This document shows, piece after piece, positions 48,862-55,214 of a DNA stretch of 64,000 nucleotides (its first letter is position 1; every line of letters begins with the position of its first letter). The notes beneath the pieces are model-generated. The model saw only the letters and a program-made list of their open reading frames with translations, was not told the DNA's origin and ran no database searches. Origin of the DNA: the human T2T-CHM13v2.0 reference genome, Homo sapiens; assembly GCF_009914755.1 (NCBI RefSeq), contig NC_060925.1; one strand, 5' to 3'. The translations under genes were made by a program, and so were the position numbers.

Positions 48862-48875
48862 TGGTGATTACTTTT
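48862..48875. repeat. Target-site duplication TGGTGATTACTTTT (copy at the L1 poly-A end)
   Basis: Identical 14-mer at 55201-55214; abuts the L1 poly-A tail. Confidence 0.92.
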
Positions 48876-49107
48876 TATTTTATTTATTTATTTATTTATT
48901 TTTATTATACTCTAAGTTTTAGGGTACATGTGCACAACGTGCAGGTTTGTTACATATGTATACATATGCCATGTTGGTGTGCTGCACCCATTAACTCGTC
49001 ATTTAACATTAGGTATATCTCCTAATGCTATCTCTTCCCCTCCCCCCACCCCACAACAGGCCCCGGAGTGTGATGTTCCCCTTCCTGTGTTCATGTGTTC
49101 TCGTTGT

Positions 49108-52100
49108 TCAATTCCCACCTATGAGTAAGAACATGTGGTGTTTGGTTTTTTGTCCTTGCGATAGTTTGCTGAGAATGATGGTTTCCAGCTTCATCCATGT
49201 CCCTACAAAGGACATGAACTCATCATTTTTTATGGCTGCATAGTATTCCATGGTGTATATGTGCCACATTTTCTTAATCCAGTCTATCATTGTTGGACAT
49301 TTGGGTTGGTTCCAAGTCTTTGATATTGTGAATACTGCTGCAATAAACATACGTGTGCATGTGTCTTTATAGCAGTATGTTTTATAATACTTTGGGTATA
49401 TGCCCAGTAATGGGATGGCTGGGTCAAATGGTATTTCTAGTTCTAGAACCCTGAGGAATCACCACACTGACTTCCACAATGGTTGAACTAGTTTACCGTC
49501 CCATCAACAGTGTAAAAGTATTCCTATTTCTCCACATTCTCTCCAGCACCTGTTGTTTCCTGACTTTTTAATGATTGCCATTCTAACTGGTGTGAGATAG
49601 TATCTCATTGTGGTTTTGATTTGCATTTCTCTGATGGCCAGTGATGATGAGCATTTTTTCATGTGCCTTTTGGCTGCATAAATGTCTTCTTTTGAGAAGT
49701 GTCTGTTCATATCCTTTGCCAACTTCTTGGGGTTGTTTGCTTTTTTCCTGTAAATTTGTTTGAGTTCATTGTAGATTCTGGATATTAGCCCTTTGTTAGA
49801 TGAGTAGATTGCAAAAATTTTCTCCCGTTCTGTAGGTTGCCTGTTCACTCTGACGGTAGTTTCTTTTGCTGTGCAGACGCTCTTTAGTTTAATTAGATCC
49901 CATTTGTCAATTTTGGCTTTTGTTGCCATTGCTTTTGGTGTTTTAGACATGAAGTCCTTGCCCATGCCTATGTCTTGAATGGTATTGCCTAGGTTTTCTT
50001 CTAGGGTTTTTATGGTTTTAGGTCTGACATTTAAGTCTTTAATCCATCTTGAATTAATTTTTGTATAAGGTGTAAGGAAGGGATCCAGTTTCAGCTTTCT
50101 CCATATGGCTAGCCAGTTTTCCCAGCACCATTTATTAAATAGGGAATCCTTTCCCCATTGCTTGTTTTTGTCAGGTTTGTCAAAGATCAGATAGTTGTAG
50201 ATATGCAGCATTATTTCTGAGGGCTCTGTTCTGTTCCATTGGTCTATATCTCTGTTTTGGTACCAGTACCATGCCATTTTGGTTACTGTAGCCTTGTAGT
50301 ATAGTTTGAAGTCAGGTGGCGTGATGCCTCCAGCTTCGTTCTTTTGGTTTAGGATTGACTTGGCAATGTGGGCTCTCTTTTGGTTCCATATGAACTTTAA
50401 AGTAGTTTTTTCCAATTCTGTGAAGAAAGTCATTTGTAGCTTGATGGGGATGGCATTGAATCTATAAGTTACTTGGGCAGTATGGCCATTTTCACGATAT
50501 TGATTCTTCTTACCCATGAGCATGGACTATTCTTCCATTTGTTTGTATCCTCTTTTATTTCATTGAGCAGTGGTTTGTAGTCTTCTTGAAGAGGTCCTTC
50601 ACATCCCTTGTAAGTTGGATTCCTAGGTATTTTATTCTCTTTGAAGCAATTGTGAATGGGAGTTCACTTATGATTTGGCTCTCTGTTTGTCTGTTGTTGG
50701 TGTATAAGAATGCTTGTGATTTTTGCACATTGATTTTGTATCCTGAGACTTTGCTGAAGTTGCCTATCAGCTTAAGGAGATTGTGGGCTGAGACGATGGA
50801 GTTTTCTAGATATACAATCATGTCATCTGCAAATAGGGACAATTTGACTTCCTCTTTTCCTAATTGAATACCCTTTATTTCCTTCTCCTGCCTGATTGCC
50901 CTGGCCAGAACTTCCAACACTATGTTGAATAGGAGTGGTGAGAGAGGGCATCCCTGTCTTGTGCCAGTTTTCAAAGGGAATGCTTCCAGTTTTTGCCCAT
51001 TCAGTATAATATTGGCTGTGGGTTTGTCATAGATAGCTCTTATTATTTTGAGATATGTCCCATCAAGACTTAATTTATTGAGAGTTTTTAGCATGAAGGG
51101 TTGTTGAATTTTGTCAAAGGCCTTTTCTGCATCTATTGAGATAATCATGTGGTTTTTGTCTTTGGTTCTCTTTATATGCTGGATTACATTTGTTGATTTG
51201 CATATGTTGAACCAGCCTTGCATCCCAGGGACGAAGCCCACTTGATCATGGTGGATAAGCTTTTTGATGTGCTGCTGGATTCGGTTTGCCAGTATTTTAT
51301 TGAGGATTTTTGTATCGATGTTCATCAGGGATATTGGTCTAAAATTCTCTTTTTTTGTTGTGTCTCTGCCAGGCTTTGTTATCAGGATGATGCTTGCCTC
51401 ATAAAATGAGTTAGGGAGGATTCCCTCTTTTTCTATTGATTGGAATAGTTTCAGAAGGAATGGTACCAACTCCTCCTTGTACCTCTGGTAGAATTCGGCT
51501 GTGAATCCATCTGGTCCTAGACTTTTTTTGCTTGGTAAGCTATTAGTTATTGCCTCAATTTCAGAGCCTTTATTGGTCTATTCAGAGATTCAACTTCTTC
51601 CTGCTTTAATCTTGGGAGGGTGTATGTGTCCAGGAATTTATTCATTTCTTTTAGATTTTCTAGTTTATTTGCATAGTGGTGTTTATAGTATTCTCTGATG
51701 GTAGTTTGTATTTCTGTGGGATCAGTGGTGATATCCCCTTTATCATTTTTTATTGCATCTATTTGATTTTTCTCTCTTTTCTTCTTTATTAGTCTTGCTA
51801 GCAGTCTATCAATTTTGTTGATCTTTTCAAAAAACCAGCTCCTGGATTCATTGATTTTTTGAAGGGTTGTTTGTGTCTCTATTTCCTTCAGTTCTGCTCT
51901 GATCTTAGTTATTTCTTGCCTTCTGCTAGGTTTTGAATGTGTTTGCTCTTGCTTCTCTAGTTCTTTTAATTGTGATGTTAGGGTGTCAATTTTAGATCTT
52001 TCCTGATTTCCCTTGTGGGCAATTAGTGCTATAAATTTCCCTGTACACATGTAGAGGGAAATTTTGTGTGCCAGAGAGTCTGGTATGTTGTGTCTTTGTT

Positions 52101-52929
52101 CTCATTGGTTTCAAAGAACATCTTTATTTCTGCCTTCATTTCATTATGTACCCAGCAGTCATTCAGGAGCAGGTTGTTCAGTTTCCATGTAGTTGAGCGG
52201 TTTTGAGTGAGATTCTTAATCCTGAGTTCTAGTTTGATTGCACTGTGGTCTGAGAGACAGTTTGTTATAATTTCTGTTCTTTTACATTTGCTGAGGAGTG
52301 CTTTACTTCCCAGTATGTGGTCAATTTTGGAATAGGTGTGGTGTGGTGCTGAAAAGACTGTATATTGTTGATTTGGGGTGGAGAGTTCTGCAGATCTCTA
52401 TTAGGTCTGCTTGGTGCAGAGCTGAGTTCATTTCCTGGATATCCTTGTTAACTTTCTGTCTTGTTGATCTGTCTAATGTTGACAGTGGGGTGTTAAAGTC
52501 TCCCATTATTATTGTGTGGGAGTCTAAGTCTCTTTGTAGGTCTCTAAGGACTTGCTTTATGAATCTGGGTGCTCCTGTATTGGGTGCATGTATATTGAGG
52601 ATAGTTAGCTCTTCTTGTTGAATTGTTCCCTTTACCATTCTGTAATGGCCTTCTTTGTCTCTTTTGATCTTTGTTGGTTTAAAGTCTGTTTTATCAGAGA
52701 CTAGGATTGCAACCCTTGCCTTTTTTTGTTTTCCATTTGCTTGGTAGATCTTCCTCCATCCCTTTATTTTGAGCCTATGTGTGTCTCTGCACGTGAGATG
52801 GGTTTCCTGAATACAGCACACTGATGGGTCTTGACTCTTTATCCAATTTGCCATTCTGTGTCTTTTAATTGGAACATTTAGCCCATTTACATTTAAGGTT
52901 AATATTATGTGTGAATTTGATCCTGTCAT
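49108..52929 (-). pseudogene. Disrupted L1 ORF2 (endonuclease / reverse transcriptase)
   Basis: MTGSNSHI...CCIQETHL (EN), LFADD (RT), ...LIGGN*. Split across at least five ORF-track pieces by frameshifts and stops. Confidence 0.96.
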
Positions 52930-52992
52930 TATGATGTTAGCTGGTTATTTTGCTCGTTAGTTGATGCAGTTTCTTCCTAGCCTTGATGGTCT

Positions 52993-54009: not shown

Positions 54010-54573
54010 CTTTGTGGTTTTATCTACCTTTGGTCTTTGATGACGGTGACTGACAGATGGGGTTTTGATGTGGGTGTCCTTTCTGTTAGTTTTCCTTCTA
54101 ACAGTCAGGACCCTCAGCTGCAGGTCTGTTGGAGTTTGTTGGAGGTACACTCCAGACCCTGTTTGCCTGGGTATCAGCAGCAGAGGCTGCAGAACAGTGG
54201 ATATTGGTGAACAGCAAATGTTGCTGCCTGATTGTTCCTCTGGAAGTTTTGTTTCAGAGGAGTACCTGGCCGTGTGAAGTGTCAGTCTGCCCCTACTGGG
54301 GGGGTGCCTCCCAGTTAGGCTACTTGGGGGTCAGGGACCCACTTGAGGAGGCAGTCTGTCTGTTCTCAGATCTACAGCTGCATGCTGGGAGAACCACTGC
54401 TCTCTTCAAAGCTGTCAGACAGGGACATTTAAGTCTGCAGAAGTTTCTGCTGCCTTTTGTTTGGCTCCTCCAGAGGTGGAGTCTATAGAGGCAGGCAGGC
54501 CTCCTTGAGCTGCGGTAGGATCTACCCAGTTTGAGCTTCCCTGCCACTTTGTTTACCTACTCAAGCCTCGGCA

Positions 54574-54918
54574 ATGGCGGGCACCCCTCCCCCAGCCTCG
54601 CTGCCACCTTGCAGTTTGATCTCAGCCTGCTGTGGTAGCAATGAGCAAGGCTCTGTGGGCATAGGACCCTCTGAGCCAGGCACAGGATATAATCTCCTGG
54701 TGTGTCGTTTGCTAAGACCATTGGAAAAGCGCAGTATTAGGGTGAGAGTGACCCGATTTTCCAGGTGCCGTCTGTCACCCCTTTCTTTGACTAGGAAAGG
54801 GAATTCCCTGACCCCTTGTGCTTCCTGGGTGGGTGAGGTGATGCCTTGCCCTGCTTTGGCTCATGCTTGGTGCACTGCACCCACTGTCCTGCACCCAGTT
54901 TCCAACACTCCCCAGTGA
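54574..54918 (+). CDS. ORF0: L1 antisense ORF0 homologue, open for 114 aa
   Basis: MAGTPPPASLPPCSLIS...RVTRFSRC matches the recalled primate L1 ORF0 (MAGAPPPASLPPCSLISD...); Kozak gcaATGG. Expression not shown. Confidence 0.7.
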   Translation: MAGTPPPASLPPCSLISACCGSNEQGSVGIGPSEPGTGYNLLVCRLLRPLEKRSIRVRVTRFSRCRLSPLSLTRKGNSLTPCASWVGEVMPCPALAHAWCTAPTVLHPVSNTPQ

Positions 54919-55027
54919 GATGAACCCCGTATCTCAGTTGGAAATGCAGAAATCACCTGTCTTCTGTGTTGCTCACACTGGGAGCTGTAGATTGGAGCTG
55001 TTCCTATTTGGCCATCTTGGCTCCACC

Positions 55028-55200
55028 CTTCTTTCTCTTTCTTTCCCTTCCAATGTCTGGATGTAGATAGCAGTACGGACCTTTACAGACTGTTCTCAAT
55101 GGATTTCTCTTCTTTACTGAGCTTCAAAGCTTCCATGATGTTGGCAGCTGGGAATGAAAGGCAGAGGGAGGGAGTGCAGGGCCGGATCGCTGCCTGGGAG
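55028..55200 (-). pseudogene. FHIT: Processed (spliced) copy of FHIT 5'-UTR exons 1(part)-2-3 fused to the L1 5' end
   Basis: The minus strand reads ctcccaggcagcgatccggccctgcactccctccctctgcctttcattcccagctgccaacatcatggaag|ctttgaagctcag...gtctgtaaag|gtccgtactgctatctacatccagac...agagaaagaag, matching the FHIT mRNA leader as I recall it. Inferred exon pieces: 55200-55130, 55129-55081 (49 nt), 55080-55028 (53 nt). Confidence 0.88.
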
Positions 55201-55214
55201 TGGTGATTACTTTT
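55201..55214. repeat. Target-site duplication TGGTGATTACTTTT (copy at the 5' end of the insertion)
   Basis: Identical to 48862-48875. Its TTTT|GA end resembles an L1 endonuclease site. Confidence 0.92.

What the first reader, a model, noticed from the sequence alone, without database searches (positions are those of the whole stretch)
48862..55214. Spliced FHIT leader fused to a full-length L1: a 5' transduction / chimeric retrocopy
Seen: the 14-bp TSD TGGTGATTACTTTT (48862-48875, 55201-55214) does not bracket the L1 alone. It also encloses 173 bp of non-L1 sequence (55028-55200) upstream of the L1's first bases, so both were inserted as one cDNA. Recalled knowledge: this segment matches the FHIT mRNA 5'-UTR across two exon junctions (49-nt and 53-nt exons, about a dozen differences, several at CpGs). 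It stops exactly at the end of exon 3 (...GAAAGAAG|GGTGGAGCCAAGATGG). Inference: a FHIT-promoter transcript spliced exon 3 onto an acceptor at the 5' tip of a sense-oriented intronic L1, and that chimeric RNA retrotransposed. This would be an L1 mobilised from a host (tumour-suppressor/FRA3B) promoter in the germ line or early embryo. Spliced 5' transductions are rare for L1. I recall that a FHIT 5'-UTR-like processed copy has been mentioned before, so the segment itself may not be new even if this mechanism is.
Basis: partly seen in the sequence, partly recalled or inferred. Interest (0 to 1): 0.92.

Follow-up and report, generated by a model that had tools for sequence, protein, structure and literature searches.

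The report
Published FHIT-exon/L1PA4 chimeric retrocopy

Summary
An exact 14-bp target-site duplication (48862-48875 and 55201-55214) encloses a minus-strand full-length L1 (48876-55027, 6152 bp with tail) plus 173 bp of non-L1 sequence (55028-55200). The 173 bp matches three collinear blocks on chromosome 3, each bounded by AG/GT splice sites. These are the last 71 nt of one exon, then exons of 49 nt and 53 nt. The match is 93.1% (12 mismatches, 4 in CpG context). It ends exactly at the donor of the third exon and abuts the terminal G-run of the L1.

It is not new. Law & Burns (Cell Genomics 2026, PMC13174262; bioRxiv February 2025) show this locus in Fig. 5B and Table S5, with the same TSD, the same FHIT exons and the call L1PA4. 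They also report finding no source L1 in FHIT introns.

My scan of the 230 kb downstream of exon 3 agrees. The one sense full-length L1 there is too divergent (83.8% in the 5'UTR, against 90-92% for unrelated copies). Cis-splicing, trans-splicing and template switching remain unresolved. No sibling copies were found. Verdict: real, correctly read, already known.

The parts
55201..55214 (-). Upstream (5') copy of the target-site duplication. It reads AAAAGTAATCACCA on the L1 sense strand, preceded by TC.
   Evidence: Table S5 of PMC13174262 lists the same TSD with cleavage site TC/AAAA.
55130..55200 (-). Leader part 1: the last 71 nt of FHIT exon 1 (6 mismatches, 3 in CpG context). The 2 nt CA just upstream are shared with the TSD.
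   Evidence: C3:61294458-61294528, 92%; GT donor after ...CTGGAAG.
55081..55129 (-). Leader part 2: the complete 49-nt FHIT exon 2 (2 mismatches).
   Evidence: 96%; AG...GT bounds.
55028..55080 (-). Leader part 3: the complete 53-nt FHIT exon 3 (4 mismatches). It ends at the splice donor ...GAAAGAAG.
   Evidence: 93%; AG...GT bounds.
54128..55027 (-). L1 5'UTR. It starts within the terminal G-run (GGTGGAGCCAAGATGG), so the L1 is complete at its 5' end.
   Evidence: 39 other genomic copies align from query position 1-8 at 90-92% identity; the 20 closest copies begin with 0-8 G followed by TGGAGCC or AGGAGCC.
53107..53739 (-). Remnant of L1 ORF1 (210-aa open piece).
   Evidence: Pfam Transposase_22 (1.8e-54), Tnp_22_dsRBD and Tnp_22_trimer.
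49108..52929 (-). Remnants of L1 ORF2, broken into open pieces of 202, 167, 256, 339 and 80 aa. The endonuclease and reverse-transcriptase domains are recognisable.
   Evidence: Exo_endo_phos (4.6e-15) on 52321-52929 and RVT_1 (8.4e-42) on 50555-51325.
48876..48906 (-). L1 3' end and degenerate A-rich tail of (TAAA)n type, directly abutting the downstream TSD. There is no 3' transduction.
48862..48875 (-). Downstream (3') copy of the target-site duplication.

Best explanation
One chimeric RNA was copied into chromosome 1 by L1 target-primed reverse transcription, at a TTTT/GA nick. The RNA consisted of at least the last 71 nt of FHIT exon 1, all of exons 2 and 3, and a complete L1PA4 with its poly(A) tail. 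The insertion produced a 14-bp TSD.

The most likely origin of that RNA is cis-splicing. A transcript from the FHIT promoter had introns 1 and 2 removed. The exon-3 donor was then joined to a cryptic AG acceptor lying directly at the 5' boundary of a sense-oriented, coding-competent L1PA4 in the very long intron 3. That L1 was probably an unfixed allele and no longer exists in the human genome. The L1 proteins translated from the chimeric RNA then mobilised it in cis.

Shown here: the structure, the splice-site-exact junctions and the single TSD. Inferred: the acceptor, the location of the source and the cis-preference. The copy is now inactive because both ORFs are fragmented.

The confidence of 0.55 is for the cis-splicing origin specifically. 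That a single chimeric FHIT-L1 RNA or cDNA was inserted in one TPRT event I hold at about 0.97.
For: - One exact 14-bp TSD encloses both leader and L1. There is no poly(A) or second TSD between them.
- The leader is three collinear FHIT blocks joined exactly at AG/GT-bounded exon ends and stops at the exon-3 donor.
- The L1 is complete to its terminal G-run and 6152 bp long, with recognisable ORF1, EN and RT domains. This is expected if the chimeric RNA had to encode its own proteins.
- An AG at the L1 5' boundary is common. In 15 of 20 closest relatives an A directly precedes the terminal G-run.
- There is a published precedent for the cis mechanism. RAP1GDS1-L1PA2 chimeras have an extant intronic source L1, a cryptic acceptor 15 bp upstream of it, and long-read RNA support (PMC13174262 section 14).
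- The same paper places this FHIT locus among 17 such chimeras, 6 of which end precisely at splice donors. It states that template switching is not favoured (section 13). Its pipeline requires the L1 and the adjacent sequence to arrive in the same evolutionary interval (section 40).
Against: - No source element was found. In the 230 kb downstream of exon 3 (C3:60855191-61085190), the only sense full-length L1 is 90.1% identical overall and 83.8% in the 5'UTR. It begins GGAGGAGGTTCC, not GGTGGAGCC, and is preceded by CATG, not AG. Unrelated copies reach 90-92% in the 5'UTR.
- Law & Burns likewise found no potential source in FHIT introns.
- An acceptor lying exactly at the first L1 base is a coincidence under cis-splicing. 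An AG alone does not make a 3' splice site. The sequence upstream of the presumed acceptor is lost, so it cannot be examined.
- I did not scan the rest of FHIT (about 1.2 Mb) or any other primate genome.
Confidence: 0.55

Rival explanations
1. Trans-splicing. The FHIT exon-3 donor waits for an acceptor about 220 kb away. It was instead joined in trans to an acceptor at the 5' boundary of an L1PA4 embedded in a different read-through or pre-mRNA transcript elsewhere in the genome. The resulting chimera then retrotransposed.
For: - No source L1 was found in intron 3 or, according to the authors, in any FHIT intron.
- Law & Burns note that 15 of the 17 parental loci lack an intronic L1. They also note that the introns following the last included exon are unusually long (median 48 kb against 2.2 kb, up to 220 kb), and they argue for a trans-splicing model (sections 13 and 20).
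Against: - A canonical L1 transcript starts at the G-run, so it has no branch point, pyrimidine tract or AG upstream of the junction. The L1 would still have to sit inside a longer transcript. This is my inference from the junction position.
- Loss of an unfixed source allele explains the missing source equally well.
- Trans-splicing is rare in mammals (background knowledge, not tested here).
- The only case in that paper with a traced source is cis (RAP1GDS1).
Confidence: 0.25
2. Template switching during reverse transcription. ORF2p copied an ordinary L1PA4 RNA to its capped 5' end. It then jumped to the 3' end of a FHIT RNA that ended at exon 3, for example the free 5'-exon intermediate of intron-3 splicing, and copied exons 3-2-1.
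For: - It would explain two precise ends at once. The L1 is complete to its terminal G-run and the FHIT part ends at the last base of exon 3.
- Several other rows of Table S5 also start at L1 base 1. Some of them have short untemplated nucleotides at the junction.
Against: - It requires a short-lived, spliceosome-bound RNA species as the acceptor template.
- The authors report that U6-type and other repetitive-RNA chimeras frequently have 5'-truncated L1 parts, whereas the mRNA chimeras are predominantly near full length. [quoted passage not shown]
- There are no untemplated nucleotides at this junction (Table S5 gives 'NA').
Confidence: 0.13
3. Two separate events: either a FHIT 5' fragment retrocopy and an L1 inserted next to each other, or an L1 inserted into a pre-existing FHIT processed pseudogene.
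For: None found.
Against: - The only duplicated flank encloses both parts, and its upstream copy lies 5' of the leader, not at the leader/L1 junction.
- There is no poly(A) after the leader.
- The junction coincides with an exon end and with L1 base 1.
- The published pipeline required the L1 and the adjacent sequence to arrive in the same time interval.
Confidence: 0.02

Closest known systems
[quoted passage not shown] 5B and Table S5
   Same: It is the same locus. Table S5 gives hg38 chr1:68681499-68687636(-), TSD AAAAGTAATCACCA, cleavage site TC/AAAA, and FHIT ENST00000488467.5 exons 1-3. The non-L1 and L1 start sequences printed in Table S5 match the window. Both TSDs are offset from the window's T2T coordinates by 122,608 bp.
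   Different: Nothing essential differs.
- the mismatch spectrum (12 of 173, 4 in CpG context);
- an explicit exclusion of the one sense full-length L1 in intron 3;
- the observation that AG commonly abuts the G-run of related L1s;
- the absence of sibling copies in T2T-CHM13.
RAP1GDS1-L1PA2 chimeras (same paper, section 14, Fig. 6)
   Same: Upstream host exons are spliced in sense onto an L1 and retrotransposed with one TSD. The host promoter drives an intronic L1.
   Different: In that case the source L1 still exists in intron 2 and the acceptor lies 15 bp upstream of it, so 15 nt of intron are carried along. That L1 lacks part of its 5'UTR (a SpIRE), and several offspring exist. Here no source, no carried intron sequence and no offspring were found, and the L1 5'UTR is complete.
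SVA type F1 (MAST2 exon 1 spliced onto SVA), a spliced 5' transduction.
   Same: A host first exon is spliced onto a retrotransposon, and the chimera is then mobilised by L1 machinery.
   Different: The SVA chimera founded a whole subfamily and the acceptor lies inside the SVA. Here there is a single copy and the junction lies at the element's first bases.
U6/L1 and other small-RNA/L1 chimeric retrogenes formed by RT template switching. Recalled from Buzdin et al. 2002-2003; summarised in PMC13174262.
   Same: The structure is bipartite, with a foreign RNA at the 5' side and an L1 at the 3' side inside one TSD.
   Different: According to the paper, those L1 parts are frequently 5'-truncated and the partner is a complete small RNA. 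Here the L1 is full length and the partner ends at a splice donor.

Membership tests
L1-mediated retrotransposition (TPRT) insertion | Target-site duplication flanking the whole insert | tested here: met
   Exact 14-bp repeat at 48862-75 and 55201-14. None of 100 shuffles gave 2 or more matches.
L1-mediated retrotransposition (TPRT) insertion | A-rich tail at the 3' end, and an endonuclease-type nick site (TTTT/AA-like) | tested here: met
   The A-rich (TAAA)n tail abuts the TSD. The empty site reads ...ACTTTT/GA on the primed strand. Table S5 gives TC/AAAA. This is one base off the consensus.
Full-length primate L1 (L1PA4 according to RepeatMasker, as cited by Law & Burns) | About 6.1 kb, with 5'UTR, ORF1, ORF2 (EN and RT) and 3'UTR | tested here: met
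   6152 bp. Pfam finds ORF1 domains, Exo_endo_phos and RVT_1. The 5' end aligns from base 1 with other full-length copies. Both ORFs are interrupted.
Full-length primate L1 (L1PA4 according to RepeatMasker, as cited by Law & Burns) | Assignment to subfamily L1PA4 by diagnostic positions | not tested
   No repeat library was available. The name is taken from PMC13174262. The 90-92% identity to the best genomic copies is compatible with a subfamily of that age but does not discriminate.
Spliced 5' transduction / mRNA-L1 chimera (Law & Burns class) | The non-L1 5' segment maps to consecutive exons of one gene, in sense, with the introns removed | tested here: met
   Three collinear blocks on C3 minus strand, separated by about 50.7 kb and about 158.6 kb, with AG/GT bounds.
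Spliced 5' transduction / mRNA-L1 chimera (Law & Burns class) | The segment ends exactly at a splice donor where it meets the L1 | tested here: met
   ...GAAAGAAG|gtaaaa in the gene, against ...GAAAGAAG|GGTGGAGCC in the copy.
Spliced 5' transduction / mRNA-L1 chimera (Law & Burns class) | The leader and the L1 arrived at the locus together, with an empty site in outgroups | not testable with these tools
   No other primate genome is held. The published pipeline required arrival in the same time interval, with manual inspection of alignments. I did not see the alignment for this locus, because the figures are not held.
Cis-spliced chimera from an intronic source L1 (RAP1GDS1 type) | An extant sense source L1 in the intron after the last included exon, with an acceptor at or just before its 5' end | tested here: not met
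   In 230 kb scanned, the only sense full-length L1 is 83.8% identical in the 5'UTR. It has a different 5' terminus and is preceded by CATG. The authors also found none. This does not exclude a lost, unfixed source.

The most novel reading that the evidence does not exclude
The junction 'exon end to L1 base 1' may not be a coincidence. Several Table S5 rows also begin at or near the L1 5' terminus.

One possibility is that the 5' boundary of sense intronic L1PA elements is itself a recurrent cryptic 3' splice site, an AG formed by a flanking or terminal A plus the L1 G-run. This AG is present in 15 of 20 relatives.

The other possibility is that ORF2p jumps from the L1 cap onto the free 3'-OH of a 5'-exon splicing intermediate. 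That would be a previously unrecognised link between spliceosome intermediates and retrotransposition.

Separately, a diverged FHIT exon 1-exon 2-like piece on chromosome 22 hints that FHIT leader RNAs were captured more than once.
Probability: 0.15. Interest if true: 0.55.

Novelty: already known. Interest (0 to 1): 0.15.

Why it matters
The locus shows that a host promoter and spliced 5' exons can be placed in front of a complete L1 and be carried with it. This is a route for L1 to acquire new regulatory sequence, or to be expressed when its own promoter is silenced. That point was made for this locus and 16 others by Law & Burns (preprint 2025, Cell Genomics 2026).

What stays open is the mechanism for cases with no traceable source: cis-splicing from a lost allele, trans-splicing, or template switching. 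This single, old, decayed copy cannot settle that question on its own.

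Tried and rejected
1. **Source L1 in FHIT intron 3.** I fetched and BLASTed 200 kb and a further 30 kb.
   - The sense full-length L1 at C3:61009723-61003574 is rejected. It is 90.1% identical overall and 83.8% in the 5'UTR, has the TSD ATAGTCATCATG, starts GGAGGAGGTTCC, and has no AG before it.
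   - The full-length L1 at C3:60966752-60974558 is antisense (92-94% identical, 89.1% in the 5'UTR), so it cannot be spliced in sense.
   - All other hits are fragments or 66-89% identical.
2. **Sibling copies.** The 37-nt junction is unique in the genome with up to 3 mismatches allowed. The 173-bp leader has no other full copy.
3. **Closest relatives of the L1.** The best 39 genomic matches to the 5'UTR are 90-92% identical, and none lies in FHIT. Only 40 of 7718 candidates were scored, so this search is not exhaustive.
4. **Chromosome 22 hit.** I followed it partly. It resembles the spliced FHIT exon 1-exon 2 sequence, but there is no L1 protein similarity in the two overlapping loci searched (about 4.2 kb) and no clear tail or TSD. 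It is not a sibling of this chimera.
5. **Earlier findings of this scan.** These were not open to the session.
6. **TSS coincidence.** I considered claiming that the leader starts at an annotated FHIT transcription start, based on Table S5. I dropped the claim. For the two RAP1GDS1 rows the 'Mapped_exon' column differs although the transcript is the same, so it gives aligned parts rather than whole exons.

Full report
**1. Observation**

The 14-mer TGGTGATTACTTTT occurs exactly twice in the 64-kb window, even with one mismatch allowed, at 48862-48875 and 55201-55214. None of 100 dinucleotide-preserving shuffles gave two matches.

Between the two copies lies a minus-strand L1. On the plus strand, the left TSD is followed directly by the complement of an A-rich (TAAA)n tail and the L1 3' end. 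On the minus strand, the L1 5' end reads GGTGGAGCCAAGATGGCC at about 55027. With its tail the L1 is 6152 bp long.

The 173 bp at 55028-55200 also lie inside the TSD but are not L1.

**2. What the 173 bp is**

I searched it against the window's own assembly. Besides itself, it hits three collinear minus-strand blocks on contig C3:

| Block on C3 | Query positions | Identity | E-value |
|---|---|---|---|
| 61294458-61294528 | 1-71 | 92% | 1e-19 |
| 61243793-61243845 | 70-122 | 96% | 2e-15 |
| 61085191-61085245 | 119-173 | 93% | 8.5e-14 |

- Reading the genomic DNA shows canonical splice sites at every block end...CTGGAAG|gtagg, ttgtag|CTTTGAAG...GTAAAG|gtaagt and ccctag|GTCCGTAG...GAAAGAAG|gtaaaa.
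- Against a computationally spliced reference, the copy aligns without gaps. There are 12 mismatches in 173 (93.1%). Four are transitions in CpG context. The parent has 7 CpGs and the copy has 3.
- The match ends on the last base of the third exon. The next bases are the L1's terminal G-run, so that one G could belong to either partner.
- At the 5' side, 2 nt (CA) are shared between the TSD and the gene.

No tool I ran names the gene. The names 'FHIT' and 'L1PA4' come from the paper cited in section 4.

**3. The L1**

- Its reading frames are broken into pieces of 80 to 339 aa.
- The pieces carry the three ORF1 Pfam domains, the endonuclease domain and the reverse-transcriptase domain.
- Its first 900 nt align from position 1-8 with 39 other genomic copies at 90-92% identity (40 of 7718 candidates were scored).
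- The 20 closest copies start with 0-8 G followed by TGGAGCC or AGGAGCC.
- The window copy has GG, plus the ambiguous exon G. It is therefore complete to the natural L1 5' terminus.

**4. It is already published**

A full-text search for FHIT, LINE-1, transduction and chimeric led to Law & Burns, Cell Genomics 2026 (PMC13174262; bioRxiv 10.1101/2025.02.02.635956, dated 3 February 2025). I read sections 13, 14, 20 and 40, parts 1-2 of Table S5, and the passages found by search. The figures themselves are not held.

- Section 13 and the legend of Fig. [quoted passage not shown] - Table S5 gives hg38 chr1:68681499-68687636(-), TSD AAAAGTAATCACCA, cleavage site TC/AAAA, and the splice donor at chr3:61,042,045-61,042,046. 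It also prints the same leader and L1 start sequences as the window.
- Both TSDs are offset from the window's T2T coordinates by a constant 122,608 bp. The exon spacings agree (about 50.7 and 158.6 kb).
- A search for FHIT with L1PA4 finds only the three held versions of this paper. A broader five-term search, requiring at least 4 of the 5 terms, listed 10 of 29 papers, and among those 10 no other title or abstract describes it.

**5. Source element**

I fetched 230 kb (C3:60855191-61085190) and aligned the window L1 to it.

- One sense full-length L1 exists, at 61009723-61003574, about 75 kb from exon 3.
  - It is 90.1% identical overall and only 83.8% in the 5'UTR. Unrelated genomic copies reach 90-92% there.
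  - It begins GGAGGAGGTTCC, has its own TSD (ATAGTCATCATG), and is preceded by CATG rather than AG.
  - A true parent should be at least as similar as random copies of the same age, so it is not the source.
- The other full-length L1 (60966752-60974558) is antisense.
- This agrees with the paper.
- A further 200 kb could not be fetched. Intron 4 onward and other primates remain unscanned by me.

**6. Siblings**

The 37-nt junction is unique in the genome with up to three mismatches allowed, and there is no other full copy of the leader. The chimera left no surviving offspring that keep the leader in this assembly.

**7. Mechanism**

The TSD, the tail and the nick site show one TPRT event. Three splice-exact junctions show that the FHIT part was processed RNA. 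How exon 3 met the L1 is inferred, not shown.

- **Cis-splicing onto an intronic L1 that was later lost.** I put this first.
  - The same paper documents exactly this mechanism for RAP1GDS1-L1PA2, with an extant intronic source, an acceptor 15 bp upstream of it and RNA reads.
  - Most active source L1s are unfixed alleles (background knowledge).
  - An AG at the boundary is common. In 15 of 20 relatives an A directly precedes the G-run. This shows plausibility only.
- **Trans-splicing.** The authors lean towards it because 15 of 17 parental loci lack an intronic L1 and the following introns are long. It still needs the L1 to be embedded in a longer transcript, because the junction lies at L1 base 1.
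- **Template switching from the L1 cap to a FHIT RNA ending at exon 3.** This would explain both exact ends. However, it needs a transient splicing intermediate as the template. The full-length bias of these chimeras also argues against it.
- **Two independent insertions.** The TSD geometry contradicts this.

**8. Verdict**

The locus, its structure, the splicing reading and the missing source are all in print.

- the mismatch spectrum;
- explicit exclusion of the intron-3 sense L1;
- the frequency of AG at the L1 boundary;
- the absence of siblings in T2T-CHM13;
- a diverged FHIT exon 1-2-like piece on chromosome 22.

Interest is therefore low, although the biology itself is attractive.

Noticed in passing
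L005 (G000:C22:46146969-46150006), minus strand, about C22:46148469-46148710: A stretch of about 240 bp on chromosome 22 aligns to the spliced FHIT exon 1-exon 2 sequence across the exon junction. The local score is 111, against 33 +/- 4 (maximum 48) for 200 shuffles. It includes a 38-bp block at 95% and a partial internal duplication of exon-2 sequence, and it stops at the end of exon 2. The downstream sequence does not map to FHIT. The two overlapping loci searched (about 4.2 kb) show no L1 protein similarity, and no tail or TSD was seen. It is absent from Table S5 of PMC13174262 (0 'chr22' entries in that file). It may be an older FHIT leader retro-fragment. The uneven divergence (about 70% against 95%) is unexplained.
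   Followed up: partly
window 55081-55129 (leader exon 2, position 102 of the 173) and L005: Both the chr1 copy and the chr22 piece read ATCCATTGAG where present-day FHIT reads ATCCACTGAG, and the site is not a CpG. The T may be the ancestral FHIT state, in which case at least one of the 12 differences arose on the gene's side.
   Followed up: no
G000:C3:61003574-61009723 (minus) and C3:60966752-60974558 (plus), in loci L013-L018: FHIT intron 3 holds two full-length L1s. One is sense to FHIT, with TSD ATAGTCATCATG and a 5' end GGAGGAGGTTCC that resembles the GAGGGAGGTTCC start of the L1PA5 in the published MAP3K13 chimera. The other is antisense and is interrupted by an insertion of about 1.6 kb.
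   Followed up: partly
window 55109-55162 (minus strand): A C-to-A difference from FHIT creates an ATG in the leader (ATCCTGG becomes ATCATGG). This opens a short upstream reading frame of 17 codons ending in TAA. It is probably a meaningless post-insertion change.
   Followed up: no
20 L1 5' ends, loci L040-L059: In 15 of 20 full-length L1 copies closest to the window's L1, an A directly precedes the terminal G-run, so an AG dinucleotide lies at the element's 5' boundary. I could not tell whether that A belongs to the L1 transcript or to the flank.
   Followed up: partly
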